64,000 nt of DNA from Candidatus Woesearchaeota archaeon (GCA_016192945.1 JACPTE010000021.1:3989-67988); one strand, 5' to 3'. Positions 14,046 through 64,000 are shown, counted from the stretch's first letter. Notes: generated by a model from the sequence alone, not told the origin. Translations and numbers: made by a program.

Positions 14046-15115
14046 ATGATAACAATAATAGGCGCAGGGGCTGCAGGAAACTATGCAGCATACCTGCTGG
14101 CGGAGAAGGGCTTTGAAGTGCAGGTGTTTGAGGCAAACAGCACAATCGGAACGCCAATTGCGTGCACCGGAATACTGACATCCTACTTTGACACCCTTGT
14201 TGAGCCGAAAAAGGAATTCATAGCCAACGAGATATCTTCATCAAGGATATACTCTCCAAACGGGGAGTTTGCCCAGATAAACTTCAGGCATCCCAACAGG
14301 ATTCTTCACAGGAACCTGCTGGACCAGCACGTGGCAAAAATGGCAGCCAATGAAGGCGCAGAATACCACCTTGAGCAGAAAAGCTAAAGATAAAAAACCT
14401 GAAAACAGAAGAGGAGTTTGAAACAGAAACCAAACTGCTGATAGGCGCAGACGGGCCTGCAAGCAGGGTTGCAAAGAACAACGGGCTTTACGGGAAAAGG
14501 ACACTTTACTCCGGGCTGCAGGCAACTGCAAAAATGGAGAATGACAACATAATAGACTTCTACCCGAGCGAGAAGGGCATAGCATGGGTAGTGCCAGAAT
14601 CAAAAGACAAGGTAAGGATAGGGATAGCAGGGCTGAAGGAGCCGCACACATACTTTGACAGATTCTGCACAACGATACTTGGAAACGATTACAAGGAAAA
14701 GCTTATTGCAAAGCAGGCAGGCCCCATACCATTATACAACCCCCACATAAAGACACAAATAAAAAATACATATATAATAGGAGATGCCGCAACAATGGTG
14801 AAAGCAACAACCCTCGGCGGGATAATGCAGAGCCACATCGCAGCGCAATGCCTCAGCACATCAATAACAGAAAGAAAAAATTATGAGCGGGCATGGAGAA
14901 AAAGGCTTGGAAAAGACCTGTGGATGCACTTAATGATGAGAAAGGCAATGGACAAGTTCAAGGCAGATGACTACAACAGGCTCATCAGGATGTTCAAAAA
15001 GGAGAAGAACAGGCGGATTCTTGAGGAGCATGACCGCGATTTCCCCACAAGGTTTGCAATGAAGCTGCTTTTCAATGAGCCAGGGCTGATGTATTTCTCC
15101 AAATTCCTTGTATAA
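14046..15115 (+). pseudogene. Geranylgeranyl-reductase-family flavoprotein split by a 1-nt frameshift
   Basis: Rossmann motif IIGAGAAGNYAAYLLAEKG at the N-terminus; ...KLLIGADGPASRVAKNNG... in the second half. The first frame stops at 14385-14387. The second frame is open from 14375 (the track lists only 14534..15115). Confidence 0.65.
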
Positions 15116-15951: not shown

Positions 15952-16293
15952 TTACTTTCTCTTCTTTCCAGCCTCATCAATCGCTATCTTCCTTACAATG
16001 TCCTCAATCTTTTTCTGGTTCCTCATTGAGACCCTGTAAGTGTAGAACGACACAGCTATCAGGAACATGAAACCTGTTATGATGAGAAGGTCAAGCTTCC
16101 TTCCTATGTTAAGCGAGCTTACCACCGGGTTAAGTATTTCAGGGAATATTGACAGGAACATGAACACAGCAGACATTGCCGTCCAGAAAATCCACTCGTT
16201 TATTGTGAATTCCCTCCTTTTAAGGTTCAGGAATGAAAAGTAAATCAGCATGAACCCGAACAAGGCGCCAAATATCTGCAATACTTCAACCAT
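15952..16293 (-). CDS. DUF2304-like small membrane protein
   Basis: 113 aa, 3-4 TM helices plus a charged C-terminal helix, immediately downstream of a GT2 gene. This is the usual DUF2304 context. Confidence 0.5.
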   Translation of the reverse strand: MVEVLQIFGALFGFMLIYFSFLNLKRREFTINEWIFWTAMSAVFMFLSIFPEILNPVVSSLNIGRKLDLLIITGFMFLIAVSFYTYRVSMRNQKKIEDIVRKIAIDEAGKKRK

Positions 16294-16296
16294 TCT

Positions 16297-16974
16297 TTAC
16301 CTCGTGAATTTCCACCAGACCATTTTCATAACTATGGCAAGGCCATCAAGGGGTGTGGTGCCCTTGTACTTGTCCACGTAAATCGTCTCAACAGGAATCT
16401 GCCTGAACCTGAGCCTGTGCTTGCCCACGAGGGCTATCATCTCTGACTCCACACTGTAGTCATGGGCTGTCCACCTTATATCCTGGTATGCCTGCCTTGT
16501 GAAAGCCCTGTAACCGCATTGCGTGTCCCTGATGCTTATCCTGAAAAGCAGCTTGATTGCAGTTCCAAGCATCCAGTTGCCTACTTTCATAACCAGAGGC
16601 ATGCGGCTGTTCAGTTCCCTGTAACCGAAGACTATATCCGCACCATCCAATGCCCTTATGAAGCTGGGGATTTCATCAGGCTCGTGCTGGGCATCAGAAT
16701 CAAGCACGATTATCGCGTCAGCTCCCCTGCTTATTGCGTAATCGCAGCCTGTTTTCAATGCAGCCCCCTTGCCTATGTTTATGATATGCCTGAGAACAGC
16801 AACACCAGTCTTCATTGCCAGCGAATAAGTCCTGTCCCTGCTCCCGTCATCAACAACTATTATCCTTTCACAACTTATGTGGCTCAGGGCTTTTTCTATC
16901 ACGCCGGATATGTGCCTTTCCTCATTGTATGCCGGTATTACAGCAAAAATCCTCATTTTTCCCTGATTGCTCAT
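16297..16974 (-). CDS. GT2 glycosyltransferase (polyprenyl-phosphate sugar synthase-like)
   Basis: IFAVIPAYNEE...IIVVDDGSRDRT...IVLDSDAQH. Its ATG overlaps the aglB stop (ATGA at 16971-16974). Confidence 0.8.
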   Translation of the reverse strand: MSNQGKMRIFAVIPAYNEERHISGVIEKALSHISCERIIVVDDGSRDRTYSLAMKTGVAVLRHIINIGKGAALKTGCDYAISRGADAIIVLDSDAQHEPDEIPSFIRALDGADIVFGYRELNSRMPLVMKVGNWMLGTAIKLLFRISIRDTQCGYRAFTRQAYQDIRWTAHDYSVESEMIALVGKHRLRFRQIPVETIYVDKYKGTTPLDGLAIVMKMVWWKFTR

Positions 16975-19900
16975 TTTACCTTTTCTATCCTGACCTTAAA
17001 GTAAAGTGTCATGTTCCCCAAGGGATGAGCTGCCGGATTAGTGCCATAAGCCTTCTCAGGCGGAACTTTAATGACTGCCTCATCCCCCTTCTTCAGCCCA
17101 ATCATCTTCTCCTCAAGGCCTGGAATTATCGTCCTGTTTCCAACCCTGAATGTGAATGGGCTTGAATCCTGGTCAAACTTGGAGTCCTTCGTGACTTTCT
17201 TGCTTATCCAGTTGCTTATTGAGCTGTCAAAAACCCTGCCATCCTCCAGATAACCTATGTAGTTGAATGTAACCTCATCGCCAGAGCTGATGTTCCTGCT
17301 TAAAAGCTCACGCTTTATCAAAGGCTCCCCGCCATTCCAGTCAACCTTGTAAACATAAATGTCAGCTCCTGTAATGCTCCTCTGGTGTGTAAGCAGCCTG
17401 AAATGACGCAGGCTGTGCCCCTCCATCAGGAACATCCTTGTAAACATGCTTGCATTCAGCTCAGGGGCTGAAACTACCATCCTGTAATTATCACCCTCAG
17501 GTATCACCGTAGCTGTAAGGTCAAACCCTGAGAGTGTGTTCTCCTCAACAGTTTTCTCAGCCACATCAGTATCAGTAAGGTATGCGACCCCCTTCAGGTT
17601 CTTTGGGCCTCCAGGGGCATTCATAAGGTATACCTCATTGCTTGAAATGTTGATTTCCAGGTCTAATGGCTGCCTCTGGTCCCCATTCAGGTATATCCTG
17701 TCGCACTGTGCAACATCCCCCTTCCTCTGGCAGGATGGGAAGCCCATGAATCCGGGCCATGGCGAAACCCACGAATTCGCCTGCGAATCAGAGAATGACT
17801 GGATATCAAAATAAGTCTGCTCTGCCTTGTCTTTGGTGTAATTGAATTTTTGCTGCATCTCGGCAACAGCCTCATCCTGGCTCTTTGACCTCAGCTTCTG
17901 CCATATGTACGCCCGCTCAAAGTTCCAGCTTCCAAAATGAGCCCACACTCCAGCCTTGCCTATCATGTCCTCAGATGCTATCACAAATGCCTCTGGCGGA
18001 TTGCAGTGGGTGTAGTTAAGCACGCTTTCTGACTGCTCTGGACTCATGCCGTATTTTTTTGCAAGCACTTCCCCTGCATCAGCCCTGTCCTTTTCAAATA
18101 TGCTGTAAAGGACGGTTACTGACTTAAGGGTATCCCCCTTGTTTGTTTTCTGGACCTCATCAAAGGCATTATTCCCCCCGCAGTCAAGCATCCTCAGGAT
18201 TCCAACAGCCATATCCTCGTTGTCTGTCTCAAGCAGCTTCCCAACCCAATGAGCCTGGGGGCTGCCCTGCGTTGTGCCATCAAAAGTAACAGGCCTCTCT
18301 GCCAGCGCCTTGAAGTGATGCCCGAAATCCCACCATGACGTGATTATAGCTGTCTTGCCTGAATTGTCCCTTATTGAGGTTAATGCGTTAAACCACGCGT
18401 CGTTAATCATTGGGGAGTCCTGCCTGGCGATGCTCAATGAAACTCCCAGCACGTCTGTAGGGAAAATAAGTATCAGCAGCGAGATTAACAGGAGAGAAAT
18501 GCTTGTGACGGTCCTGTCTATCTTAAGCTCCCTTGACAGGATGTTATTAAGGTTCCTGTACAGGAAGCCAATCGCTATGCCAATCGCTATGCCAAAAGCA
18601 GGGGCAATCAGCATCATGAACCGCTGCCCCTTGATGCTTGCATAAATCGTGACAATATACCATAGTATGAGCAGCACTGAAAGCTTCATGTCTATCGGGT
18701 CAGACCTCAGAGCAGCATAAACACCCCTGACAATAACAGGAATGGACAGCAGGGCAATGAACGTGAGCTGGGAGAAGCTATCCCTCAACAGAATCAAAAC
18801 CAGCCACCAGAGCGCTGCAAGCGCAATGAACATAAGCTCGGTCGTGTCAACCTTCCTCTTGGTCATAGCAAGCATTATTCCCAAAAGGGAGAGGAAGAAA
18901 AGGAAGACGCCCCCCACATTGTCTATTATCATGTTTACGCTACCCTCATTAAGCTCGGCAACGGTTGTAAGGACATTAGGCCATAATGTCGGCTCAACAG
19001 GATTCTTTATCTTAGCAAAACCGAGGGCAGTAATCGGGGGCTGGAGATAATCAGCTCCAGAGATTAACACTACGAAAATCCCTGATGACAGCATGAATGC
19101 CAACCCAACAACAGCCAATGCCCTGACATCAGGCCTCAGCAGGAAGCCCCTCGGATTCGCCCTGAGCTCCCTGAAATGGGTCACAACCAGATATGCGCCG
19201 TATATTGCTGATGAGGCTATCAGGAAGTCAAAGATAAACCACCAGCCACCCCAAAATCTTGTGTAAAGCCCGACTGAAAGCCCTGCAAGGGCTGAAACCA
19301 GCAGCTGCCACCTTAGCTTCCTTGATTCAATAGCCGAAAGGAACAGGAAAGTCACAAGAATGGAAAAAAACACCACCCATGTGTCAGAGTCGCCGTGGCC
19401 ATACAGGCTTCTGGAAAGGAATGAGGCGTTCAAAGACATGAATGCCGCAGCAAAAAACCCGCCAACATCACCTGCGAGCCTCCTTGCAATCAGAAAAACC
19501 AGCACAGCTGAAATGGCTGAAACTATCACCGGGTAAATCATCTCAGCCTGCATCAGTGTAATCTCTGAGCTGAAAACCCTCAATAACCTGAAAAGGAGGG
19601 CTATTGAATAAGGATGGAATGTGTCTTCCGGCTCTACGAACCTGCCATCAGGGGCAAGCTGGAATGTATCATAGCTTTTCCCATCCCTAAGCACATCTCC
19701 AGGGTAGCCGTGGTCAAGTATGTTCCTTGCGTACCTGAGCCAGTAGTAAGGGTCTATGTCAGGCATGTAAAGGTTGCCCTTCTCGTCCTCAAAAAACGAC
19801 TTGTAATAGTCAGAGGTAATCTTTATCTGCTGACTTATGCTCATCTGCTGCCCAGCATACTGGCCTGTCTTGAACACATACACATCGCTGGAAATGGCCT

Positions 19901-20474
19901 TCCTGAACTCCTCATCCACAATCCCATTCTTGTTCTCATTAGGCAAGTTGGGATATTGCGAGTCCACAAGGTTTCCTAAATCGCCCCTGATAAGGTTATA
20001 GACTGACTCTGTTGCAGAATTGTCAGCATACACCATGTATGCTGGCAGCATCCTCACATAAACGCAAAGCCCTACAACAAATAAGATAGCCAGAACCGGA
20101 ATAATCAGGCCGCTCTTCTCGCGAAGAAATGCAACTGCCGCCCTCGCATCAATTGAGATGTCTTCCTCTTCCTTTTTTAACCCGGGCTCATGATGCTCTC
20201 CATGCTGCTTCCCAACATGAGACTTGGTAACTCCTGATTCCTTTTTCCTGAACAATCCTGAGAAATCAATGCTTATCTCATCATCATGCTCCTCTTGAGC
20301 AGAATCATGATGCTCCTTGTGCCCCTTATGCTCTTCATGCCTTTCAGCTGATTCACCAGGCTGACTCTTATGGGAAGATGCCTTCTTTCCGAATGGCCAA
20401 AGCTTCTTAAGGTCTATGCTTATCTCATCATCGCTATCGTGCTTTCCATCCTGCTCATCATCCATTTTCCCCAA
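16971..20474 (-). CDS. aglB: Oligosaccharyltransferase AglB/STT3 with His-rich N-terminal extension and C-terminal FKBP-type PPIase domain
   Basis: First-loop DIDPYYW, multi-TM core and the WWDFGH (WWDxG) motif. The last ~105 aa (~16974-17303) read GDEVTFNYIGYLEDGRVFDSS...FTFRVGNRTIIPGLEEKMIGLKKGDEAVIKVPPEKAYG, an FKBP signature. Confidence 0.85.
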   Translation of the reverse strand: MGKMDDEQDGKHDSDDEISIDLKKLWPFGKKASSHKSQPGESAERHEEHKGHKEHHDSAQEEHDDEISIDFSGLFRKKESGVTKSHVGKQHGEHHEPGLKKEEEDISIDARAAVAFLREKSGLIIPVLAILFVVGLCVYVRMLPAYMVYADNSATESVYNLIRGDLGNLVDSQYPNLPNENKNGIVDEEFRKAISSDVYVFKTGQYAGQQMSISQQIKITSDYYKSFFEDEKGNLYMPDIDPYYWLRYARNILDHGYPGDVLRDGKSYDTFQLAPDGRFVEPEDTFHPYSIALLFRLLRVFSSEITLMQAEMIYPVIVSAISAVLVFLIARRLAGDVGGFFAAAFMSLNASFLSRSLYGHGDSDTWVVFFSILVTFLFLSAIESRKLRWQLLVSALAGLSVGLYTRFWGGWWFIFDFLIASSAIYGAYLVVTHFRELRANPRGFLLRPDVRALAVVGLAFMLSSGIFVVLISGADYLQPPITALGFAKIKNPVEPTLWPNVLTTVAELNEGSVNMIIDNVGGVFLFFLSLLGIMLAMTKRKVDTTELMFIALAALWWLVLILLRDSFSQLTFIALLSIPVIVRGVYAALRSDPIDMKLSVLLILWYIVTIYASIKGQRFMMLIAPAFGIAIGIAIGFLYRNLNNILSRELKIDRTVTSISLLLISLLILIFPTDVLGVSLSIARQDSPMINDAWFNALTSIRDNSGKTAIITSWWDFGHHFKALAERPVTFDGTTQGSPQAHWVGKLLETDNEDMAVGILRMLDCGGNNAFDEVQKTNKGDTLKSVTVLYSIFEKDRADAGEVLAKKYGMSPEQSESVLNYTHCNPPEAFVIASEDMIGKAGVWAHFGSWNFERAYIWQKLRSKSQDEAVAEMQQKFNYTKDKAEQTYFDIQSFSDSQANSWVSPWPGFMGFPSCQRKGDVAQCDRIYLNGDQRQPLDLEINISSNEVYLMNAPGGPKNLKGVAYLTDTDVAEKTVEENTLSGFDLTATVIPEGDNYRMVVSAPELNASMFTRMFLMEGHSLRHFRLLTHQRSITGADIYVYKVDWNGGEPLIKRELLSRNISSGDEVTFNYIGYLEDGRVFDSSISNWISKKVTKDSKFDQDSSPFTFRVGNRTIIPGLEEKMIGLKKGDEAVIKVPPEKAYGTNPAAHPLGNMTLYFKVRIEKVK

Positions 20475-20804: not shown

Positions 20805-21117
20805 TTATGCTAGAACTCCTACTTTCTTTCCCTTTTCTTCTTCTACGTGATCCAATTTTTCTAGAAGCAAATTGTCATACAGTTCAATCAACTGTTTAAC
20901 AGCAATGTTCTCTTTATTAATTTTGTAAAGGGTAGCTCTTCCAATCTTTCTTGTCTTTACAACGATTCCTAATTCTAAAATTTTAGGAACCAATGTATTT
21001 AAAGTTCCCCAACTTACTGGCTCAGGTGAAAGTCTCCTGAAGGGGCTCGTCTATAACAGTGTCACCTAGTTACTGCACAATATAGATTGCATCTTTTATG
21101 GCGATATATCGGTTCAA
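20805..21117 (-). pseudogene. Degraded winged-helix transcription regulator
   Basis: The 3' part (track ORF 20805..20993, TTG start) encodes ...WGTLNTLVPKILELGIVVKTRKIGRATLYKIN (recognition helix + wing). The expected N-terminal helices (NRYIAIKDAIYIVQ*LGDTVIDEPLQETF) lie upstream, interrupted by TAA and in another frame. Confidence 0.35.
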
Positions 21118-21163: not shown

Positions 21164-22063
21164 CTATTTCTTCATGAACAGGAAGATTGTTGCAGCCCCA
21201 AGGTAGTTCATCATCAGCAGTATTATGTGCGCGCTTATGGTTATTTCAGCAGGGACGCCCTTAAGCCCGTAGAGAACGACTGCTGCTCCCTCTTTGATTC
21301 CAAGCCCGGACATTGTTATGGGTATTAGCGATAGGAGCATGGTTGTTGCGCTTATTGTCACTATCACAACCATGCTTACAGGCTTTCCGAAGGAAAGGAA
21401 TGCAAGGTAAGTGACAACTGCTGTAAGCCCCCACTTAAGGAATGTTATTGCTGTGTTTGCAATCACTGCCTTTTTCTCTTCAAAAACAAGGTATCTTGTT
21501 GTTTTTGAGAATCCTGCAAAGATTTCCCTGTGCTTCCCAAGTATGCTCTTGATGATGCCTGTTCCGAATGGGGTAAGAATGAATACGGCAGCTGTAATAA
21601 TCGCTGTAATTGTCACTCCAGTCAGGAGGATTGCCTGCTGTATTGGCAGGAATATGAAGAATCCTATGAATGCGAGGCAGCAGAGCGTTATGGTTGTTGT
21701 CAGCTTGTCCAGTACTGAGACTGCTGTTGCCTGTCCTATGCTCATGTGCTCTTTTGCAAGGTACACGAATGAGAATTCCCCCACTTTTCCTGGTATTACC
21801 ATCCCGAATGCCCATGCCCGGATGTAGTATCTCCACATTTCTCCCATTTTTATCCTGACTTTCAGGGCATCTGTCAGGATTTTCAGGTTGTATGCTCCTA
21901 TGAAAAGCCCGAGTATGAAAAGTATTATTATTGCGGGCAGGTAAATAAGGTTCATTGTTGTTATTGTGGCAGCTATCTCCTTTATGCCGACTTTGTAGAG
22001 GAGCAGTACCATTATGGCCAGCCCTAAGGCAATCTTTGCAATGCTGGATAGTTTGATGCTCAT
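21164..22063 (-). CDS. UPF0104 / LPG-synthase-TM (flippase-like) membrane protein
   Basis: 8 TM helices with the conserved ...AFGMVIPGKVGEFSFVYL... (P-x-K/R-x-GE) motif. Confidence 0.65.
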   Translation of the reverse strand: MSIKLSSIAKIALGLAIMVLLLYKVGIKEIAATITTMNLIYLPAIIILFILGLFIGAYNLKILTDALKVRIKMGEMWRYYIRAWAFGMVIPGKVGEFSFVYLAKEHMSIGQATAVSVLDKLTTTITLCCLAFIGFFIFLPIQQAILLTGVTITAIITAAVFILTPFGTGIIKSILGKHREIFAGFSKTTRYLVFEEKKAVIANTAITFLKWGLTAVVTYLAFLSFGKPVSMVVIVTISATTMLLSLIPITMSGLGIKEGAAVVLYGLKGVPAEITISAHIILLMMNYLGAATIFLFMKK

Positions 22064-22524
22064 TTGCGTATGTTGGCAACTTCTCCCCTGTTGGCTCTTT
22101 GCAGCTCTTTGGTTGGTATCCTTATTAGGGAGTTTGGCGTTCCCCCGCTTGTGTAAACTTTTTCTTTTTCCATTACTTTGTAGTCTATGAGGAACATGGC
22201 AGGATAGCCGAATGATGGGACGCCTCCAACAGGGTATCCTGTCTTTTGGAGTATCTCATCTGGTGTTGCTGTCCTGGGCCTCTCAATATTGAGGAGTTTC
22301 CCGATTTTTGTTGTGCTTGCCCTGTCCATTGCCTTTACCAGTGCAACTATTATTTCTCCATTGGCTCCTGCAAGGCATATGTTTTTGATGAAGTCCTCAA
22401 TGTCAGCCTTTGCAGTAATGGCAGCCTCTTCTGCTGAGTGGCACGATTCCCTGAAAGCCATGTATTCCCCACGGATGCTGTGCTTCTGCATGTATTCCTT
22501 GAGCTTCTTCTCGTATTCGTTCAT
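22060..22524 (-). CDS. YbaK/ProX-type aminoacyl-tRNA deacylase (trans-editing domain)
   Basis: 154 aa with ...FIKNICLAG...IIVALV...GYPVGGVPSFGY...VYTSGGTPNSLIRI, the YbaK/EbsC pattern. Confidence 0.65.
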   Translation of the reverse strand: MNEYEKKLKEYMQKHSIRGEYMAFRESCHSAEEAAITAKADIEDFIKNICLAGANGEIIVALVKAMDRASTTKIGKLLNIERPRTATPDEILQKTGYPVGGVPSFGYPAMFLIDYKVMEKEKVYTSGGTPNSLIRIPTKELQRANRGEVANIRK

Positions 22525-23429: not shown

Positions 23430-23449
23430 TGTTTCCATAACCCTTGCGC

Positions 23450-25291
23450 ATGGGTTTTGCCTCTGTTTTGCTGTTTTTCATGTACACTTATGGATTGGGC
23501 TTCTCTCTGTCAAGGTTTGTTAGGAATTCTGATAATTTCCTTGAGAGGAATATCATGCGTTTTGGGTTTGGCCTTGCAGGGCTTGTTGTTCTTGGAGTAA
23601 TACTGAACTTTCTTAAGCTGCCTGTTGACTGGGGCATTTTCCTTTTCATCAGCCTGGTTCCTGCCCTGTTTATTGCAGGGCTTGACTACCTTTCAAGCAA
23701 GCCCAGGGTTGGGTTTGAGTTCAGGGTGAGGAAGTCGGACATCTGGGCATTGCTGGCTTTGGGCGTGTTCGTTTTTGCATTGGTTATGTATTCGGGAGGA
23801 GCCTTGAAGTATCCATACCTTGAGGATGAGGACCCGTGGGGGCATGCTGTGGGGGCTAAATATGTAGCGGTTGAGAAGAAGGCGTATGACACTGCTGTTT
23901 ATAACTTCGCATATATGGACCCTTATCCTCCTGGCTATGATATCCTGATGGGCGTGCTTCACCAGACAGAGCCCTCGCTTCAGTTTGTGCTGAAATTCTT
24001 CAATGGGCTTATTATTGCCCTTGGCATCTTGTGGTTTTATTTTGTTGCAAAGCATCTTGCAGGCCCTGGAAAAGCTGCATTTTCTGCCTTTGTGCTTGCG
24101 ATGATTCCTTCTTATTTTACGCATTTCATCTGGGCACATTCGCTTGTAATCGCCCTTTTTTTCCCGGCGATGTATGCCTTCTGGATGATTAAGGAGGACA
24201 GGCGCTGGATTGTTCCTTCAGCCTTTTGCGTGGCTGCCATTTTGCTTTCCCAGCCAGACCAGCCTATCAAGCTCGCTGTCATGATTTTCGTGTTTATTGC
24301 AGTCAGGGCATGGCATGATAGGAGGTTTCCTGTCTGCGAGATTTCAGCAGGAATGCTTGGTGTTGCAATCTCCCTTTTGTGGTGGGCTTCCAGGGCTGTT
24401 GCAATGTTTGGGTATGCAAACACGATTGCCGGCGGCTCTGCCTTTGGAGCGGCTGGCGGCTCTGCCTCAAGGCCTTATTCTTTTGCTGACTTTGTATTTC
24501 CGAATGCGATTCCTGGAAATTCCCTGATTAATGTTCCTCCTGGTTTCGGCCCTGTTGTTTCCATTCTCCTTGTTTTGGGCCTTGTTGCTGTTGCCTTGAG
24601 CTATAAGCGCATTTTGAGGAATGAGAAGCCTTGGCTTGCTCTTGTTTTCATCTGGTTCCTGTTCGCTTTTATTTTCACGAATTCAGCAACTTTAGGACTG
24701 CCTTTCGGGCTTAACCCTTTCAGGTTCTGGCTGCTTCTTGCGATTCCTGTTGCTGTTCTTGCAGCAGAGGGCGCTTGGTTTGCCGCCTCTTTCATAAGGC
24801 TTCCCGAGCCTGTGAAGATGGGCATCGTAATTGTCCTTGCAGTGCTGGTTTTCAGCACGTCTGGTCTGTACAAGTGGGGCATTAACAACTCTACAGGCTG
24901 GTATGGCGGTCCTCTTGCTGTTGAGGGCTCGCTGCCTGGCTATCTGTGGCTCAAGACACTTCCTCCAAATGCAAGGGTTTTGTCTTTCGGTGACGCCTCA
25001 TTCATAATTGGTCTGGATGCCTATAGCTGTGCATGGTGCCCTGAGGATGTCAGCTTCAGGAAGGGCGCTTATTCCCGCTCTCCGGATGAGATTCATTCAT
25101 TCATGAAGAGGCAGGGCTACGAGTTCCTTCTCCTTAGCTCCATTGAGCTGGGGGATAATTCTGACGGCTCTCAATACCGCTTCTATAACCAGACAGTCCT
25201 GAAGAAGGAGATTGAGCTTGGCAACTCGTCATTGTTCTCCACTGCAAATATTTATGAGAATGGGGCTGTTGCTGTTTTCAGGGCTAACTAG
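23450..25291 (+). CDS. GT-C fold membrane glycosyltransferase (PMT/ArnT/STT3-like)
   Basis: Multi-TM protein with an acidic first-loop motif YLEDEDPWGH and a ~130-aa C-terminal soluble domain. ATG 23450 preferred over the track TTG 23444. Confidence 0.55.
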   Translation: MGFASVLLFFMYTYGLGFSLSRFVRNSDNFLERNIMRFGFGLAGLVVLGVILNFLKLPVDWGIFLFISLVPALFIAGLDYLSSKPRVGFEFRVRKSDIWALLALGVFVFALVMYSGGALKYPYLEDEDPWGHAVGAKYVAVEKKAYDTAVYNFAYMDPYPPGYDILMGVLHQTEPSLQFVLKFFNGLIIALGILWFYFVAKHLAGPGKAAFSAFVLAMIPSYFTHFIWAHSLVIALFFPAMYAFWMIKEDRRWIVPSAFCVAAILLSQPDQPIKLAVMIFVFIAVRAWHDRRFPVCEISAGMLGVAISLLWWASRAVAMFGYANTIAGGSAFGAAGGSASRPYSFADFVFPNAIPGNSLINVPPGFGPVVSILLVLGLVAVALSYKRILRNEKPWLALVFIWFLFAFIFTNSATLGLPFGLNPFRFWLLLAIPVAVLAAEGAWFAASFIRLPEPVKMGIVIVLAVLVFSTSGLYKWGINNSTGWYGGPLAVEGSLPGYLWLKTLPPNARVLSFGDASFIIGLDAYSCAWCPEDVSFRKGAYSRSPDEIHSFMKRQGYEFLLLSSIELGDNSDGSQYRFYNQTVLKKEIELGNSSLFSTANIYENGAVAVFRAN

Positions 25292-59064: not shown

Positions 59065-60017
59065 AAAAAGGCATACTGCTGTATCTGGTCGGGTTTGCTG
59101 TTTTTTTCTACCTGCTTACAAGGATAAACATTGGAGAGACTGTAAGGATAATCATTGATTCCAACAAGCTGTTCATCCTGCTGGCAGCCATTCTGGTCCT
59201 TGTTATTCCATTCCTGGAGGCCTTGAGGTGGAGATTCATAATGAGACAGCTTGATTTTGATTACAGCTTCAGGGATGTTTTTTCCATGCTCGCCTCCTCG
59301 CTTTACATAGGGTTTGTAACTCCTGCAAGGCTTGGGGAGTTTGCTAGGGTTTCTTTTTTCAGGGGCAGGAGCCTCGGGGCTTCTTTCTTCAGCGTTTTTA
59401 TGGACCGGTTTTCAGACCTGATTTTCATTGCCGGAGTGGGATACATAGGCATGTTCTTTTTTGTGAGCGCCCTTGGCCAGCAGATTTTCTGGGTTTCTGT
59501 TGCAATCATCGGGAGCTTCCTTTTTGCTGCCATTGCAGTCCTGAGGAGGGATTTCGTGAGGCTGTTCCTCAGTTTTGTCTTTCACAGGATTATCCCTGAG
59601 AAGTTCAAGCCAGAATTGAAGACGATTTTCTATGATTTTTACAGGAGCTTCTTTCGCCTGCTGAACTTCAGGTCTGTGCTGGTGATTCTGGCGCTGACTA
59701 TCCTCTCATGGCTGCTTTATTATGCTGCTGTTTACCTGCTTGCCCTGGCGATAGGGATAAACATCTCTTTCATTCACATGGCCACTGTTGTAAGCGTTGC
59801 CAGCTTCTTGTCAATTCTTCCAATAAGCATCTCTGGGATTGGGACCAGGGATGCGGCGTTTGTGTTCTTTTTTGGGCTTCTCAGCCTGAAAAGCGAGTTT
59901 GCAATAGCACTCTCAACATTAGTCCTTATCCTTATGGTGCTTGTTGCTGTTTGCTGCTTCCCGTTTTACTTAATGAAGCCTGTCAATTTCCTTTTCTTCC
60001 AGGAGAAGGATAGATGA
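59061..60017 (+). CDS. UPF0104 / LPG-synthase-TM (flippase-like) membrane protein, second copy
   Basis: ...LEALRWRFIM...YIGFVTPARLGEFARVSFF... (P-x-R-x-GE motif). GTG 59061 preferred; the track start 58953 lies inside the previous ORF. Confidence 0.6.
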   Translation: MKKGILLYLVGFAVFFYLLTRINIGETVRIIIDSNKLFILLAAILVLVIPFLEALRWRFIMRQLDFDYSFRDVFSMLASSLYIGFVTPARLGEFARVSFFRGRSLGASFFSVFMDRFSDLIFIAGVGYIGMFFFVSALGQQIFWVSVAIIGSFLFAAIAVLRRDFVRLFLSFVFHRIIPEKFKPELKTIFYDFYRSFFRLLNFRSVLVILALTILSWLLYYAAVYLLALAIGINISFIHMATVVSVASFLSILPISISGIGTRDAAFVFFFGLLSLKSEFAIALSTLVLILMVLVAVCCFPFYLMKPVNFLFFQEKDR

Positions 60018-60026
60018 GGGATTAGT

Positions 60027-60073
60027 GATAAAAATGTATACTTTTATCCGTGATTTATGGATAAAAATGTATA
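60027..60073. repeat. Two copies of a 14-nt direct repeat plus an 8-bp inverted repeat at the border of the A/T-rich island
   Basis: GATAAAAATGTATA at 60027-60040 and 60060-60073. TTTTATCC / GGATAAAA lies between them. Confidence 0.5.
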
Positions 60074-60188
60074 TTTGGGTTGGCAGCTTCAAGAAGGTTG
60101 ATGAGTCAATAAGTTGTTCTTTTTTACACGAATAATCTTATGTGACATCTATGTAAAAAATTAGTCTCCTAATTCAGCAATATCACTT

Positions 60189-60680
60189 TTAGAATTTCCA
60201 CCTTTCTGCCCTGAATAATTCTACAATATCTATGGCTTCAATTGATTTCTGGGAACAGACATAGGGGATTTTTACTTGAGTTCCTCTTAGTTTTTCTTCT
60301 GTGACCACTATTCTTTTGATGGTAAGTATCGTCTTTTGTGGTCTTGAAGATAGTTCTATTGCCAAAGCTATGACCCAAGGATCTGCATCATATTTTCTTT
60401 CTGTATCAATTAAAGAAGGATAATCTTTAAGGATTTCCTGCACAAGTTCAATCTGCCTTAGTGTGGGTGCTTTAAACATCTTTTTTTGTGTTTTTGCCCA
60501 TTTGCTTAGCATATCGTCATTCTGATTTATCTCATTATGGACTTCTCTTGGAGCGATTAGGCGGTTATTATCTACAAGAAACTTCAATTTGTCCCAAATA
60601 CTTGGAAATACATCGATTGGGTTATTCCTGTTCAACTTCACTAAGGAGGAAGTATCTATGATGTACATATTATCCGTCAT
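60189..60680 (-). CDS. DUF4411 (PIN-like nuclease fold) protein
   Basis: MYIIDTSSLVKL...NRLIAPREVHNEI...DADPWVIALA matches my recollection of DUF4411. The ATG overlaps the upstream stop (ATGA). Confidence 0.6.
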   Translation of the reverse strand: MTDNMYIIDTSSLVKLNRNNPIDVFPSIWDKLKFLVDNNRLIAPREVHNEINQNDDMLSKWAKTQKKMFKAPTLRQIELVQEILKDYPSLIDTERKYDADPWVIALAIELSSRPQKTILTIKRIVVTEEKLRGTQVKIPYVCSQKSIEAIDIVELFRAERWKF

Positions 60681-61837
60681 TTTTTTGCCTTGGAGAGTAC
60701 CTTGTCAAAGCTCTTTGACTTTATGGACAGGTAGTTTAATGCATCAGTATACGTGATATAATCTCTGTCGTAATTATTGGCCACTAGAGAAACGAATTTA
60801 TTACCAATTTCAGAAAGGCATTTAACTTCAGAACGTATTCCTCCACCAGTTCCTTCTTCAGGTTCTTTTTTTGGTTTGATTTCTTCCTTCTTGAACCTTG
60901 CCAAAATTGCATCATAATCGGCTTTTTCAATATATCCTAATTTGAGCATGTTTAATAGAAGCATAGCCTTGCTTACTTTAAACCTATTAGAGAGTGTTTT
61001 AAGCATTTCCTTTGAAGTTAAATTGGCTTTATTTGTTTCAAACGTGTTTTTTGCCACTTCTTTTGGCAGCAGGTACGTTGATGCGAATTCGTTACACCAT
61101 TGCTCAACATTGTCATTGTAGGAGTGTGTTGCATCTGGGAGATCTATGACTGATTCTCCAAGCAAGATATGTGCAAATTCGTGCATTAATGAGAAAACTC
61201 TTGCTTCAATATTGTCTTTGGTATTAACAACTACCACTGATGGAGATTCATCCACAAAGGCAAATCCTCTGGCATCTTCCACAGGCATTGAGAATTGGAA
61301 CAAGAAAATATTCATATCTTCAAGAATGTCTCTTAAATAGTTGAATAGTTCATAAGATGTTTTGAATCTTCTTTGTTTATCTTCAGTTAAATTGAATTTT
61401 TCTCTAAATTTAAGGGCAGTTTTTTCGGGATCATCAGAGATACTTGCTCTTTCAAGTTTTGATTTTGTTTCATATTCAATATTCTTTGATAGTTCCTTGC
61501 TTAATTCCTGCAATCGTCTTGCCTTTCTCATGACAAGAATGGTCTTTTTATCGAACTTGTTAGTTTCATTGGGAAGCATCCTGTAGTCTTTCGGCTTAGG
61601 CTTTTCTGTCAGAGGTTTTGACAATAAAAATGATGCAACTGGCCTTTTGAATATGACTGAAAGCTCTTCCAGCTGCCTAAAAGAGGGTTTCTTCTCGCCA
61701 GACTCCATCTTTTCAATATTCTGAGAACTAGTCTTGAGCCTTTTGGCTATTTCTTCCCTCGTCCATCCCGAACTCTCAATAAGCCATTTCAGGACAGACA
61801 GCTCAACATCCACAGCAATTGGTTTTGTTCTTGCCAT
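60677..61837 (-). CDS. Fused XRE-type HTH + ImmA/IrrE (COG2856, DUF955) zinc metallopeptidase
   Basis: N-terminal ...GWTREEIAKRLKTSSQNIEKMESGEKKPSFRQLEELS (HTH). Central SLMHEFAHILLGE (HExxH). Confidence 0.7.
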   Translation of the reverse strand: MARTKPIAVDVELSVLKWLIESSGWTREEIAKRLKTSSQNIEKMESGEKKPSFRQLEELSVIFKRPVASFLLSKPLTEKPKPKDYRMLPNETNKFDKKTILVMRKARRLQELSKELSKNIEYETKSKLERASISDDPEKTALKFREKFNLTEDKQRRFKTSYELFNYLRDILEDMNIFLFQFSMPVEDARGFAFVDESPSVVVVNTKDNIEARVFSLMHEFAHILLGESVIDLPDATHSYNDNVEQWCNEFASTYLLPKEVAKNTFETNKANLTSKEMLKTLSNRFKVSKAMLLLNMLKLGYIEKADYDAILARFKKEEIKPKKEPEEGTGGGIRSEVKCLSEIGNKFVSLVANNYDRDYITYTDALNYLSIKSKSFDKVLSKAKK

Positions 61838-61914
61838 TTTATTTCAATCTCTATTTTTTCTTTATTTCAAGCTTTCCTCAAAAATTTGCTTTTCTTGGTT
61901 CATGGAAGATTTAT

Positions 61915-62232
61915 TCAAGTTTTCGCTAAAATTATTTTCACAATTACGTCTATACCTTTTTCAACTCCTTTTTCAATCAATTTCCTTATCAGTATCTTCA
62001 AAATGCTTTCATCATTATTTGAAATTGCGACTTTAATTTCCTCTAAATCTTCTCTTATTCTTTCGTTTTCTGGTTTTATTATTTCCTCATTTATTGATTT
62101 TATTATCTCTTTTTTGAAGTTATCAACCGCAATCCCAACAATTCTGCCATGTTCAATCTTTAAATCAGAAGTATCTGATATAATTTTTCCAAATTGATCT
62201 GTCATTACTTTTTTATTAAATTCAATAGTCAT
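61915..62232 (-). CDS. Small Ile/Lys/Glu-rich ORFan, translationally coupled to the methyltransferase
   Basis: 105 aa. The ATG overlaps the methyltransferase stop (62229-62232). Predicted helical. No motif recognised. Confidence 0.4.
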   Translation of the reverse strand: MTIEFNKKVMTDQFGKIISDTSDLKIEHGRIVGIAVDNFKKEIIKSINEEIIKPENERIREDLEEIKVAISNNDESILKILIRKLIEKGVEKGIDVIVKIILAKT

Positions 62233-64000
62233 TTCAACGAATCCTCAATAATCTTCTTTTCCTCTTCAGTTATTCCGTATAGTTTATAGACTTCTTTGTC
62301 TATCTCGTTATCTAATTTTTGGATTTCTTTTTCAATACGGACTTTTTCATCGGTTTGTTTATCCTTAATTTCAATTAATCTCCTATTTAATTCTATCAAT
62401 GTTTTTGCATTATTAGATATTGTTTTATTGTAGCAACTAATAATTGGTAATCTCCTCAATTCTTTTCCACTTACATGATTAGTGTTACTAAATACTTTAA
62501 AGTAGAGATTGATTAATTTTGAGTTTAATATTCCTAAATGATAAAAAATATCTGTATTTTCTTTTAATGAATATAAGTAGTTACATGTATGTCCACAATT
62601 TGCCCCTTTCTCAAGAATAGTTGCTTTTATTCTTCTTTTTTGAGCCATGTTTGAGACTTCTTGTAGCACAATTCTATTCTCGTCGGAATCATCTCTTTTA
62701 AGAGAAGTATATACCACAAAACTTTCTTTGCTTTCTTGTTTATCAATTTGGTATCTCTGCAAATCATTTCCTCGAATTAAAGGTCTCGTTTTATCTTCGG
62801 ATTTATTCCGAAGATATTTTTTATAGACTGTTAAATTTACTTCTCCTTGGTTTATTGTAAAGAAGTTCTCAAAACTATCCTTTCCTTTATCCTTTATCTT
62901 TGACACTAATTTAACCAAATCATCTTTTGTTATTATTGAAAGATTATCTAATTCAAAGAATGTTTTTTGTTTAATTCTACCTGTGACAAAAGAATCAAAA
63001 TCTGATTTTTTTGTAACATCATCCATTAATATAACCGTGTTATTCATTACATTCTTAGAGTTTGTATCCTTTTTTAGAATTATAACGGTGGTTGCTTGTG
63101 TTACTCCTTCAAATACTTTTAAAGACTCTGGAAGTACCAAAATTTTAATTATTTTGGTCTCTTTTAAGATTTTTTCTCTCAGAGCATGTGAATTATTGTC
63201 GGATAACCATGTATTAGGTACTATAAATCCTAATACCCCTTCGTTTCTTAATAGGCTCATCCCTTTTTCAATAAAGAGACGATATGAATTCATTTTGCCT
63301 CTATTTGTACTATATTTATTCAAAAGAAAATCTTTTACTTCTTCTAAATCAGCACCATAAGGCGGATTCCCAATAACAACATCAAACCCACCATTAGCCA
63401 TTATATCTTTAAATTGTTCTTCCCATTTGAAAGCCCTATCTCCTGCAATAGCAGAATCATCAATCAATGAATTTCCAACCTTAATATTTTCCTGTAATGT
63501 TGGCAATCTATGTTTTTTCTCTGTAGTTTTTAATAATAAATTTAACTGGGCTATTTCAACAGCTTTAGAGTCTAAATCAACTCCAAAGATATTTTCTTTT
63601 AAGATTTCAACTTTTCTTCCATAGTTTGCAGAAGCTCCAGTTAAGTCAAGCTTTGTCTGATCTACTTCGCCATTTTTCTTTTTGTCAAGAGTAACAAGGT
63701 AATCAAAAGCTTTCATTAAGAAAGAGCCTGAGCCGCAAGCAGGGTCTAAAATCTTGATGGTTTTCAAATCGAATGTTTTGTCTTTGGCTAATTCGCCAAC
63801 TGTATTTTTAACAATGTAATCCACTACATAAGTAGGAGTGTAATATATTCCCTGCTCTTTTCTGTGTGCTTTTCCTTCGGCGAGTTTGGCCCTTTTATCT
63901 GTTTTCTTTAGAATATGCCCTAAATACTGCTCGTATATGTTACCTAAAACATCAGCGTCAATTGCAGAAAAATCATAATGCACAACATTATCACTTGTAT
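62229..64000 (-). CDS. Eco57I/TaqI-family N6-adenine DNA methyltransferase (type IIG or type II R-M component), 5' end outside the window
   Basis: ...DVLGNIYEQYL..., ILDPACGSGSFL (motif I), VIGNPPYG (motif IV), TaqI-like C-terminal region (LGILNSKLINLYFK), C-terminal ...LYGITEEEKKIIE. The frame remains open to base 64000 (..TSDNVVHYDF..). Confidence 0.75.
   Translation of the reverse strand, partial: TSDNVVHYDFSAIDADVLGNIYEQYLGHILKKTDKRAKLAEGKAHRKEQGIYYTPTYVVDYIVKNTVGELAKDKTFDLKTIKILDPACGSGSFLMKAFDYLVTLDKKKNGEVDQTKLDLTGASANYGRKVEILKENIFGVDLDSKAVEIAQLNLLLKTTEKKHRLPTLQENIKVGNSLIDDSAIAGDRAFKWEEQFKDIMANGGFDVVIGNPPYGADLEEVKDFLLNKYSTNRGKMNSYRLFIEKGMSLLRNEGVLGFIVPNTWLSDNNSHALREKILKETKIIKILVLPESLKVFEGVTQATTVIILKKDTNSKNVMNNTVILMDDVTKKSDFDSFVTGRIKQKTFFELDNLSIITKDDLVKLVSKIKDKGKDSFENFFTINQGEVNLTVYKKYLRNKSEDKTRPLIRGNDLQRYQIDKQESKESFVVYTSLKRDDSDENRIVLQEVSNMAQKRRIKATILEKGANCGHTCNYLYSLKENTDIFYHLGILNSKLINLYFKVFSNTNHVSGKELRRLPIISCYNKTISNNAKTLIELNRRLIEIKDKQTDEKVRIEKEIQKLDNEIDKEVYKLYGITEEEKKIIEDSLK

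What the first reader, a model, noticed from the sequence alone, without database searches (positions are those of the whole stretch)
16971..20474. AglB oligosaccharyltransferase fused to an FKBP-type prolyl isomerase, with a His-rich repeat N-terminus
One 1167-aa ORF combines three parts. (a) A ~120-aa cytoplasmic extension rich in His (HEEHKGHKEHH.., QHGEHHEPG), with three D/E-D/E-(E/D)-ISID repeats (~20118-20432). (b) A canonical STT3/AglB core (DIDPYYW loop, WWDFGH). (c) A C-terminal FKBP domain (~16974-17303). The AglB C-terminal domain is extracytoplasmic, so the PPIase would sit outside the cell, next to the glycosylation site. That would physically couple N-glycosylation to folding of exported proteins. 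I do not recall this fusion being described.
Basis: partly seen in the sequence, partly recalled or inferred. Interest (0 to 1): 0.7.

Follow-up and report, generated by a model that had tools for sequence, protein, structure and literature searches.

The report
Archaeal glycosylation enzyme with built-in foldase
A DPANN (Woesearchaeota-type) archaeon encodes its N-glycosylating enzyme AglB as one protein with a prolyl-isomerase (FKBP) domain on its outward-facing end, and sister species carry an unrelated prolyl isomerase (parvulin) at the same spot, which suggests that sugar attachment and protein folding are physically coupled at the cell surface.

Summary
ORF 16971-20474 (-) is uninterrupted. 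It combines a disordered, His-rich N-terminal extension with three (D/E)3-ISID repeats, a complete STT3/AglB oligosaccharyltransferase with every catalytic motif tested, and a C-terminal FKBP domain (Pfam 6e-19). It is not an assembly artefact: FKBP-fused orthologues at 34-60% identity occur in 28 of the best 80 species-representative genomes, all Woesearchaeota/Nanoarchaeia. No membrane helix separates the external WWDFG domain from the FKBP. The FKBP carries a conserved N-x-T sequon, and a stand-alone relative has a lipoprotein signal peptide, so the domain is almost certainly outside the cell. FKBP12 pocket residues Y26, F36, D37, I56, Y82 and F99 are invariant in 14 diverse fused domains.

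The main new result is that five diverged clusters of the same syntenic gene (reductase-AglB-GT2-DUF2304) carry a parvulin PPIase at the same C-terminal position. Two unrelated prolyl-isomerase folds recruited to one site point to selection for prolyl-isomerase or foldase function near the glycosylation site.

Catalysis is not proven: human FKBP11 sits beside OST-A as a non-catalytic adaptor. I found no paper describing the fusion, although NCBI names some members "FKBP-type PPIase". Verdict: a new variant of a known kind, of moderately high interest.

The parts
16971..20474 (-). Whole aglB-FKBP ORF (1167 aa from TTG 20474). The likely true start is ATG 20465 (1164 aa). The stop codon is 16971-16973.
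20115..20474 (-). Cytoplasmic N-terminal extension (residues 1-120). It is predicted disordered, has 12 His (my own count on the translation), and is rich in acidic and basic residues.
   Evidence: sequence; pLDDT about 30 for residues 1-106; no sequons, 20 K+R
20412..20429 (-). Repeat 1, DDEISID(L).
   Evidence: clade-wide motif
20265..20282 (-). Repeat 2, DDEISID(F).
20148..20165 (-). Repeat 3, EEDISID(A), just before TM1.
18423..20111 (-). Multi-span GT-C membrane domain of AglB/STT3 (residues about 122-684), including a long first external loop.
19740..19766 (-). MPDIDPYYW (residues 237-245): the first DxD catalytic motif, with D239 and D241 invariant.
19383..19400 (-). GHGDSD (residues 359-364): the second acidic motif, with D362 and D364 invariant.
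18954..18965 (-). TVAE (residues 504-507): the TIXE-type motif of the external loop, with E507 invariant.
18318..18335 (-). WWDFGH (residues 714-719): the signature motif of STT3/AglB/PglB.
17337..18422 (-). External C-terminal domain of AglB (residues 685-1046): a helical core plus a beta-rich unit, with four invariant Cys (765, 824, 915, 924), ending in the conserved YVYKVDW.
17295..17336 (-). Linker of about 14 residues (1047-1060) between the AglB core and the FKBP.
16974..17294 (-). FKBP-type PPIase domain (residues 1061-1167). It has an archaeal-type bulge insertion, a short flap with no IF insert, and a conserved N-x-T sequon (N1154).
16297..16974 (-). Downstream GT2 gene, similar to polyprenyl-phosphate glycosyltransferases of the AglJ/PpgS type. 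Its ATG overlaps the aglB stop (ATGA).
   Evidence: synteny
15952..16293 (-). DUF2304 small membrane protein, the conserved third gene of the aglB-GT2-DUF2304 unit.
   Evidence: synteny

Best explanation
The gene encodes the N-oligosaccharyltransferase (AglB) of a Woesearchaeota-type DPANN archaeon, with an FKBP-type prolyl isomerase domain tethered by a linker of about 14 residues to the end of its external C-terminal domain.

Proposed mechanism: AglB transfers the lipid-linked glycan to Asn in N-x-S/T sequons of still-unfolded polypeptides as they emerge on the outer face of the membrane. The tethered FKBP binds Xaa-Pro segments of the same chains. It then either catalyses the slow cis/trans step, so that folding follows glycosylation at once, or holds the chain open long enough for the sequons to be used. 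Fusion guarantees one-to-one stoichiometry and co-localisation in an organism with a tiny genome and no ATP-driven chaperones outside the cell.

Shown: the architecture, its conservation, intact OST motifs, an intact FKBP pocket, the lack of any membrane span before the FKBP, and replacement of the FKBP by parvulin in orthologues.

Inferred: the external location (strongly supported), catalytic activity, and action on AglB substrates.
For: - The architecture is real and conserved. 33 of the 120 best database hits, counting the window's own protein, carry STT3 plus FKBP_C. 28 of the best 80 GTDB species-representative loci match through residues 1159-1167 at 34-60% identity. About 27 of the top 150 50%-identity representative clusters are 1000-1220 aa with a C-terminal FKBP.
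- The OST is intact. The invariant residues are D239, D241, D362, D364, E507 and W714/W715/D716. Foldseek matches PglB at 1.5e-18, and also AglB and STT3A/B. The model has pLDDT 87.7 and pTM 0.81.
- The FKBP is intact. Pfam gives 6e-19. It matches FKBP13 with target-normalised TM-score (TMt) 0.77-0.79. FKBP12 pocket residues Y26, F36, D37, I56, Y82 and F99 are invariant in 14 fused domains from all subgroups, and W59 is L, F or M.
- It is outside the cell. No hydrophobic segment follows about residue 677, and 7 of 8 sequons lie in the C-terminal part with none in the N-terminal 121 residues. An N-x-T sequon is conserved in 13 of 14 FKBP domains. The external domain has four invariant Cys. The stand-alone relative P0147 has a lipoprotein signal peptide. 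Unfused orthologues have sequon-rich tails at this position.
- Selection for PPIase function. Five diverged clusters (44-48% identity to P0075) carry a C-terminal parvulin instead. FKBP-fused, parvulin-fused and unfused genes all share the slot reductase-AglB-GT2-DUF2304.
- Precedent that folding factors attached to OST matter: MagT1/TUSC3 (PMC4137057) and FKBP11 at the OST-A translocon (PMC12804085).
Against: - There is no biochemical evidence. PPIase activity and glycosylation activity are both untested, and the organisms are uncultured.
- In the only solved OST-plus-FKBP assembly (human FKBP11, PDB 9n9j), the FKBP pocket is buried by CCDC134 and the authors argue against a prolyl-isomerase role.
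- The R42 equivalent is lost in a 17-residue bulge insertion and W59 is replaced, so kinetics could differ from FKBP12.
- The IF chaperone insert typical of archaeal FKBPs is absent (the FKBP anatomy is from my own knowledge of MtFKBP17).
- Many orthologues lack any PPIase module, so it is dispensable.
- I could not inspect the model coordinates, so proximity of the FKBP pocket to the OST peptide site is unverified.
Confidence: 0.6

Rival explanations
1. The FKBP (or parvulin) domain is a non-catalytic binding module outside the cell. It would use its pocket to dock a partner protein or a proline-containing segment of particular substrates such as S-layer protein or pilins. It would recruit or regulate them at the OST rather than accelerate folding, as FKBP11 does at the human translocon.
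For: In PDB 9n9j, FKBP11 sits by STT3A with its ligand site buried by CCDC134 and acts as an adaptor. A conserved pocket is equally required for binding. The clade-specific bulge insertion, with a conserved Trp and a sequon, could be a dedicated interaction surface.
Against: Replacement by a parvulin, an unrelated fold that shares only prolyl-isomerase or proline-binding chemistry, at the same position in positional orthologues is hard to explain by a specific FKBP-partner interface. No candidate partner gene co-occurs in the conserved neighbourhood.
Confidence: 0.22
2. The PPIase acts in cis on AglB itself. It would isomerise a conserved proline in AglB's own mobile external loop or C-terminal domain, either to help the enzyme fold or to gate its catalytic cycle.
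For: AglB has many invariant prolines in external segments: P178, P275, P499, P688, and the nearly invariant P238, P242, P826, P827, P905, P907. The high pTM of 0.81 suggests the FKBP is packed in a defined way against the rest of the protein.
Against: The same prolines are invariant in the many orthologues that have no PPIase module, so AglB does not need one. A permanently tethered catalyst for a single folding event is uneconomical.
Confidence: 0.08
3. Artefact: two adjacent genes (aglB and an FKBP gene) were joined by a sequencing or assembly error in this contig, or the FKBP is in fact cytoplasmic because the topology differs from canonical AglB.
For: Only that reads for this contig could not be inspected, and that another gene in the window (14046-15115) does show a frameshift.
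Against: The frame is continuous. The same fusion occurs in 28 independent species-level genomes and dozens of metagenome contigs at 34-60% identity. The last conserved core motif, YVYKVDW, runs directly into the FKBP in all of them. No TM segment lies between WWDFG and the FKBP.
Confidence: 0.02

Closest known systems
Archaeal AglB (for example Archaeoglobus fulgidus AglB-L, PDB 3WAK/7E9S), bacterial PglB (3RCE/6GXC) and eukaryotic STT3
   Same: Same GT-C fold, WWDxG motif, two acidic DxD-type motifs and TIXE-type loop motif. A single-subunit OST with an external C-terminal domain. It sits in a glycosylation gene cluster.
   Different: It has an extra C-terminal PPIase domain. It has a very long first external loop (about 170 residues). 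It has a disordered N-terminal extension of about 120 residues carrying repeated acidic ISIDF motifs. It scores only 87 bits against the archaeosortase-associated archaeo_STT3 subfamily model (cut-off 450), so it belongs to a different AglB subfamily.
Human FKBP11 bound to the OST-A secretory translocon (PDB 9n9j; PMC12804085)
   Same: A membrane-anchored FKBP on the non-cytosolic side, positioned beside the STT3 catalytic subunit where nascent chains emerge. My model matches both chains of that entry.
   Different: The association is non-covalent, ribosome-dependent and substoichiometric. The pocket is buried by CCDC134, and the authors propose an adaptor role, not a catalytic one. The archaeal case is a covalent one-to-one fusion with no CCDC134 equivalent identified.
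OST oxidoreductase subunits Ost3/Ost6 and MagT1/TUSC3 (PMC4137057)
   Same: A folding catalyst physically attached to the OST, which acts on the substrate so that sequons remain accessible (abstract).
   Different: The chemistry is thiol-disulfide exchange on a thioredoxin fold, and these are separate subunits of the eukaryotic complex. Here the chemistry is prolyl isomerisation, fused in a single chain.
Membrane-tethered extracytoplasmic PPIases of bacteria: PrsA and PpiC lipoproteins (parvulin), and the membrane-anchored cyclophilin PpiA of Lactococcus (PMC2678132, PMC12524980, PMC3307742, listed)
   Same: A PPIase anchored on the outer face of the cytoplasmic membrane to assist folding of exported proteins. 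The stand-alone relative P0147 has just such a lipoprotein anchor.
   Different: The anchor here is the oligosaccharyltransferase itself, which links the foldase to one specific modification step.
Archaeal cytosolic FKBPs (MtFKBP17, PDB 1IX5; MjFKBP26, 3PR9)
   Same: The best archaeal sequence match (E=2.7e-12). It shares the bulge insertion after the FDSS motif and the IPG(F/L)EE motif.
   Different: Those proteins are cytosolic and carry an IF chaperone insert in the flap. Here the flap is short (AYGTNPAAHPLGN), the domain carries N-glycosylation sequons, and it lies after an external domain.

Membership tests
STT3/AglB/PglB oligosaccharyltransferase (GT-C, GT66) | Match to the STT3 membrane-domain profile above the curated threshold. 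| tested here: met
   PF02516 at 118 bits against a cut-off of 24.5, residues 213-657.
STT3/AglB/PglB oligosaccharyltransferase (GT-C, GT66) | WWDxG motif at the start of the external C-terminal domain. | tested here: met
   WWDFGH at residues 714-719. W714, W715, D716 and G718 are invariant in 70 homologues.
STT3/AglB/PglB oligosaccharyltransferase (GT-C, GT66) | Acidic metal- and acceptor-binding residues in external loops (first and second DxD-type motifs) and the TIXE/SVSE-type loop motif. | tested here: met
   D239xD241, D362xD364 and T504-V-A-E507 are all invariant. Assignment of these motifs to the canonical ones rests on position and on established knowledge of PglB and AglB.
STT3/AglB/PglB oligosaccharyltransferase (GT-C, GT66) | DK/MI-type Ser/Thr-binding pocket motif in the C-terminal domain. 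| tested here: inconclusive
   An invariant S834-x-D836-M-I-G-K840-x-G-V843-W844 lies at a plausible position, but I did not establish which motif variant it corresponds to.
STT3/AglB/PglB oligosaccharyltransferase (GT-C, GT66) | The overall fold of solved OSTs. | tested here: met
   Foldseek matches PglB 6gxc at E=1.5e-18 (target-normalised TM-score, TMt, 0.61), AglB 3wak and 7e9s at about 1e-12, and STT3A/B. The model has pLDDT 87.7.
STT3/AglB/PglB oligosaccharyltransferase (GT-C, GT66) | Transfer of a lipid-linked glycan to Asn of N-x-S/T. | not testable with these tools
   This needs an enzyme assay or glycoproteomics.
NCBIfam TIGR04154 archaeo_STT3 (archaeosortase A-associated AglB subfamily) | Score above the subfamily cut-off. 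| tested here: not met
   87 bits against a cut-off of 450. The protein is not a member of that subfamily, only of the wider STT3 family.
FKBP-type peptidyl-prolyl isomerase | Match to the FKBP_C profile above the curated threshold. | tested here: met
   PF00254 at 68.6 bits against a cut-off of 21.1, residues 1061-1163. PDB FKBP hits reach E=1.3e-20 with the domain alone.
FKBP-type peptidyl-prolyl isomerase | FKBP fold (a five-stranded sheet wrapped round a short helix). | tested here: met
   Foldseek matches FKBP13 4nnr with target-normalised TM-score (TMt) 0.77-0.79, and FKBP12 and FKBP25 with TMt 0.71-0.76. Domain pLDDT is above 90.
FKBP-type peptidyl-prolyl isomerase | Conserved hydrophobic or catalytic pocket residues (FKBP12 Y26, F36, D37, F46, V55, I56, W59, Y82, F99). 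| tested here: met
   Y26, F36, D37, I56, Y82 and F99 are invariant in 14 fused domains. F46 is F or L, V55 is V or I, and W59 is L, F or M. R42 is lost in the bulge insertion. The FKBP12 sequence was verified. The residue list is from established knowledge.
FKBP-type peptidyl-prolyl isomerase | Measurable cis/trans isomerase activity, inhibited by FK506. | not testable with these tools
   This needs a recombinant-domain assay.
Archaeal SlyD/MtFKBP17-type FKBP with IF chaperone insert | An insert-in-flap domain of about 45-60 residues after the AYG motif. | tested here: not met
   The flap is short in all 14 fused domains. The alignment to 1ix5 stops at AYG.

The most novel reading that the evidence does not exclude
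Woesearchaeota-type AglB may be a self-contained glycosylate-and-fold station.

- Its disordered cytoplasmic N-terminus, with repeated acidic ISIDF and basic motifs, would dock the ribosome or the Sec translocon.
- Its core would glycosylate the emerging chain.
- Its C-terminal PPIase module (FKBP or parvulin, interchangeable) would control proline isomerisation around the sequons.

This would be a one-polypeptide archaeal counterpart of the eukaryotic translocon-OST-foldase assembly. In unfused orthologues the C-terminal sequon-rich tail would act as a tethered pseudo-substrate or be auto-glycosylated.
Probability: 0.15. Interest if true: 0.85.

Novelty: new variant of a known kind. Interest (0 to 1): 0.62.

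Why it matters
N-glycosylation needs an unfolded sequon, and folding competes with it. How cells coordinate the two is known only in eukaryotes, where they use accessory OST subunits and translocon partners. Archaeal AglB is regarded as a stand-alone enzyme.

A widespread archaeal lineage has hard-wired a prolyl isomerase onto the OST, and has done so with two unrelated isomerase folds. This is natural genetic evidence that proline isomerisation is a relevant partner step of N-glycosylation at a cell surface.

It offers a minimal, single-chain system in which to test glycosylation-folding coupling in vitro. It is a possible tool for glyco-engineering, as an OST with a built-in foldase. It also bears on the surface biology of DPANN archaea, whose lifestyle depends on surface proteins.

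Tried and rejected
- The Python sandbox was lost. The planned neighbour-joining tree of the core domain (to count gains, losses and swaps of the C-terminal module) and family-wide sequon statistics could not be computed. The patchy distribution is inferred only from identity ranks.
- A word-index homology search with the FKBP domain alone returned one fragment. The exhaustive representative search replaced it.
- The window's own contig is not on record for context look-up.
- The contig of the stand-alone lipoprotein FKBP P0147 is only 3 kb and gives no taxon.
- Nine literature searches, word-searches within two reviews and one DOI look-up found no description of an AglB/STT3-PPIase fusion. The main AglB phylogeny paper (Mol Phylogenet Evol 2020) is not held, so prior mention there cannot be excluded.
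- The repeat motif was sought elsewhere in the window as a possible shared signal, and none was found.
- Pfam found nothing for the 62-aa ORF upstream or for the 615-aa membrane protein.
- Rejected: an assembly or frameshift artefact; a cytoplasmic FKBP; membership of the archaeosortase-associated AglB subfamily; an IF-type chaperone FKBP.

Full report

The ORF 16971..20474 on the minus strand (1167 aa from a TTG) is exactly as described. The DNA across the junction between the AglB core and the FKBP reads through without a stop or frame change. The true start is more likely the ATG at 20465 (1164 aa). That is the form held in the protein database (P0001). Homologues begin at the equivalent Met. 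A TATA-like TTTATAAA lies about 35 nt upstream.

Pfam assigns STT3 to residues 213-657 (E=1e-33) and FKBP_C to 1061-1163 (E=6e-19, 68.6 bits against a curated cut-off of 21.1). PDB sequence searches hit both STT3 and FKBP chains. The three acidic ISID repeats are at DNA 20412-20429, 20265-20282 and 20148-20165, and are the only good matches to that motif in the window. The first 121 residues contain 12 histidines, my own count on the translation.

**2. It is not an artefact.**

Of the 120 best database relatives, 33 (counting the window's own protein) carry STT3 plus FKBP_C, at identities down to 37%. In the GTDB species-representative genomes, at least 595 relatives exist. Of the best 80 loci, 28 match continuously through residues 1159-1167 at 34-60% identity.

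By their record titles, these are Woesearchaeota/Nanoarchaeia MAGs labelled as groundwater, Yap, ARS, JZ and other sample series. Woesearchaeota belong to the kingdom Nanobdellati (DPANN). An exhaustive HMMER scan of 1.84 billion representatives with the FKBP domain alone found about 27 clusters, among the top 150, that are 1000-1220 aa with a single FKBP at the extreme C-terminus. It also found many N-terminally truncated fragments of the same architecture.

In all of them the last conserved core motif (…YVYKVDW-G) runs directly into the FKBP after about 15-20 residues.

**3. The oligosaccharyltransferase is intact.**

In a 70-sequence alignment the invariant residues include D239 and D241 (MPDIDPYYW), D362 and D364 (GHGDSD), E507 (TVAELNE) and W714-W715-D716-F-G718. 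By position, and from what is established for PglB and AglB, these correspond to the two acidic motifs, the TIXE loop motif and the WWDxG motif. An invariant S834-x-D-M-I-G-K840 may be the DK/MI pocket motif, but I did not resolve that.

An AlphaFold2 model built on this alignment has mean pLDDT 87.7 and pTM 0.81. Foldseek matches it to PglB (E=1.5e-18), A. fulgidus AglB and STT3A/B. The protein scores far below the cut-off of the archaeosortase-associated AglB subfamily (87 against 450 bits), so it belongs to a different AglB lineage.

The neighbourhood is a glycosylation locus:
- a GT2 resembling polyprenyl-phosphate glycosyltransferases, whose ATG overlaps the aglB stop (ATGA);
- a DUF2304 membrane protein;
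- a flippase-like protein;
- a second AglJ-like GT2.

**4. The FKBP looks functional and lies outside the cell.**

Aligned with human FKBP12 (sequence verified), 14 fused FKBP domains from all subgroups keep Y26, F36, D37, I56, Y82 and F99 invariant. F46 is F or L, V55 is V or I, and W59 is L, F or M. To my knowledge Phe at position 59 occurs in FKBP12.6, and a W59L FKBP12 mutant appears among the structural matches (2dg9). R42 is lost in a clade-specific bulge insertion of about 17 residues.

The domain most resembles archaeal MtFKBP17 in its first half, bulge included. It lacks the insert-in-flap chaperone domain.

Evidence on location:
- There is no hydrophobic segment after about residue 677, so the FKBP is on the same side as the WWDFG domain (helices).
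- The fold superposes on PglB and AglB, whose C-terminal domain is periplasmic or external (plus established knowledge).
- Seven of the protein's eight sequons lie in the C-terminal part and none in the N-terminal 121 residues.
- An N-x-T sequon before the last strand is present in 13 of 14 FKBP domains, and an N-[IV]-T in the bulge in 9 of 14.
- The external domain has four invariant cysteines.
- A stand-alone FKBP of the same subtype (P0147) starts with a lipoprotein-type signal peptide, MIKKILLVALCVLIVGC.
- Unfused orthologues carry, in place of the FKBP, a tail of 16-57 residues dense in N-x-S/T.

**5. The strongest functional clue is a second PPIase family at the same site.**

P0075 carries a C-terminal parvulin (Rotamase_3, E=4.5e-30) right after the same core motif. 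A search centred on it found four more parvulin-fused clusters (P0267, P0283, P0298, P0315) at 44-48% identity, on contigs up to 152 kb. All of them have the parvulin at the C-terminus.

The P0075 parvulin keeps the HIL…SEDSS…GDLGWF…FGYHIIK pattern, as I recall it for active Par10 and PrsA-type parvulins (sequence; the motif knowledge is mine).

Synteny shows these are the same gene. FAD-dependent reductase, AglB, GT2 and DUF2304 appear in that order around an FKBP-fused gene at 56% identity, one at 39%, an unfused one and a parvulin-fused one. Relative to either query, the fused and unfused forms are interleaved in similarity rank. The module has therefore been gained, lost or swapped several times. 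The exact number of events is unresolved because the tree could not be computed.

The shared bulge, Trp and sequon features of all the FKBP modules suggest a single FKBP origin. One orthologue carries a DUF4352 domain instead.

**6. Mechanism.**

I propose that the OST core glycosylates unfolded exported chains. The tethered PPIase acts on Xaa-Pro bonds of the same chains, either accelerating the rate-limiting folding step right after glycosylation or keeping the segment accessible.

The closest conceptual precedents are these:
- The thioredoxin-like OST subunits MagT1/TUSC3, which are needed for cysteine-proximal sequons (PMC4137057, seen).
- The human translocon structure 9n9j, which my model hit on two chains, STT3A and FKBP11.

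The second precedent is also the main caveat. There FKBP11's pocket is buried by CCDC134, and the authors argue for an adaptor role, not an isomerase role (PMC12804085). The adaptor reading is therefore the principal rival (about 0.2). The parvulin swap argues against a fold-specific docking role. A cis-acting role on AglB itself is unlikely, because orthologues without the module keep the same invariant prolines.

**7. Novelty.**

Nine full-text searches and word-searches within two reviews found no mention of an AglB/STT3-PPIase fusion. These included a 2024 review of archaeal N-glycosylation and a 2021 survey of archaeal PPIases. The 2020 AglB phylogeny paper is not held.

[quoted passage not shown] The sequences are therefore known, but as far as I can tell the architecture and its implication have not been described. 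I rate it a new variant of a known kind, with interest about 0.6. It is a clear, widespread and testable natural fusion, backed by convergent evidence, but it lacks biochemical proof and comes from uncultured organisms.

**8. The N-terminal extension.**

The repeat is not peculiar to this protein. The family consensus is M…DDEISIDFxKIKxFFKKKK, followed by one to three further copies before TM1. It is present in FKBP-fused, parvulin-fused and unfused members alike. His/Glu/Lys-rich spacers recur in several of them.

The region is predicted disordered (pLDDT about 30). It has no sequons and lies before TM1, so it is cytoplasmic by the canonical topology. It looks like a set of short linear docking motifs. 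Its partner is unknown. Ribosome or translocon docking is a speculative possibility, prompted by the ribosome-binding basic helix of FKBP11.

Noticed in passing
window 20115-20474 (-); homologues P0002-P0120: The N-terminal acidic ISIDF motif followed by a basic or aromatic stretch ([DE][DE]E-I-S-I-D-F-x-K-I-K-x-F-F-K-K) is a clade-wide repeated motif with 2-4 copies. It occurs in fused and unfused AglBs alike, in a region predicted disordered, and His/Glu/Lys-rich spacers recur. A precomputed Pfam family, PF27869.1, is listed for many homologues but is absent from the local Pfam copy. The function is unknown.
   Followed up: partly
homologues listed (for example P0025, P0029, P0031, P0038, P0052, P0070): Unfused orthologues end in low-complexity tails of 16-57 residues dense in N-x-S/T. 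By eye, roughly half or more end with N-x-S/T as the very last three residues (…NSS, …NNS, …NIS). This could mean auto-glycosylation or a tethered pseudo-substrate. I did not compute statistics because the sandbox was lost.
   Followed up: partly
P0075/L001, P0267, P0283, P0298, P0315/L086: Orthologous AglBs carry a C-terminal parvulin-type PPIase instead of the FKBP, in the same syntenic slot. A further orthologue (P0086) carries a C-terminal DUF4352 domain.
   Followed up: yes
window 14046-15115 (+): A geranylgeranyl-reductase-like FAD protein is split by a frameshift near 14370-14387. The frame A ORF ends …AEYHLEQKS*, and the protein continues in another frame as …KLKIKNLK…LIGADGPASRV…. In related genomes this gene is intact (360-370 aa) and lies directly upstream of aglB. 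This is either a pseudogene or a sequencing error.
   Followed up: partly
window 16971-16974: The aglB stop and the start of the downstream GT2 gene overlap as ATGA, which suggests translational coupling. The aglB-GT2-DUF2304 order is conserved in distant relatives.
   Followed up: yes
window 23444-25291 (+): A 615-aa multi-span membrane protein has no Pfam hit and only a faint match (E=0.004) to the membrane region of archaeo_STT3. It may be an uncharacterised GT-C-type glycosyltransferase, divergently transcribed from the glycosylation cluster.
   Followed up: partly
window 22060-22524 (-): A YbaK-type aminoacyl-tRNA editing domain gene sits between a flippase-like gene and an AglJ-like GT2 gene, overlapping both. 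This is an odd member of a glycosylation cluster.
   Followed up: no
window 20805-20993 (-): A 62-aa ORF lies in the 690-bp gap upstream of aglB. Its sequence (…RATLYKINKENIAVKQL…) looks helix-turn-helix-like to me, but it has no Pfam hit. It may be a small regulator or may not be a gene.
   Followed up: partly
P0147 / L082 2526-2978: A 150-aa stand-alone FKBP of the same subtype (bulge with Trp) has a lipoprotein-type signal peptide. It could be the free-living form of the module fused to AglB.
   Followed up: partly
loci L005-L007, L011, L013 and others: Many TPA 'binchicken' MAGs carrying this Woesearchaeota-type AglB are titled 'uncultured Methanosarcinales archaeon'. These taxonomic labels look wrong.
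   Followed up: no
L083 20008-22365: A 785-aa GT4 glycosyltransferase in a related Woesearchaeota locus carries a LAGLIDADG_3 hit, so it may be an intein-containing glycosyltransferase.
   Followed up: no
window 60001-64000: G+C drops from about 0.46 to 0.30-0.35 in the last 4 kb of the window. This may be a foreign or otherwise atypical segment.
   Followed up: no
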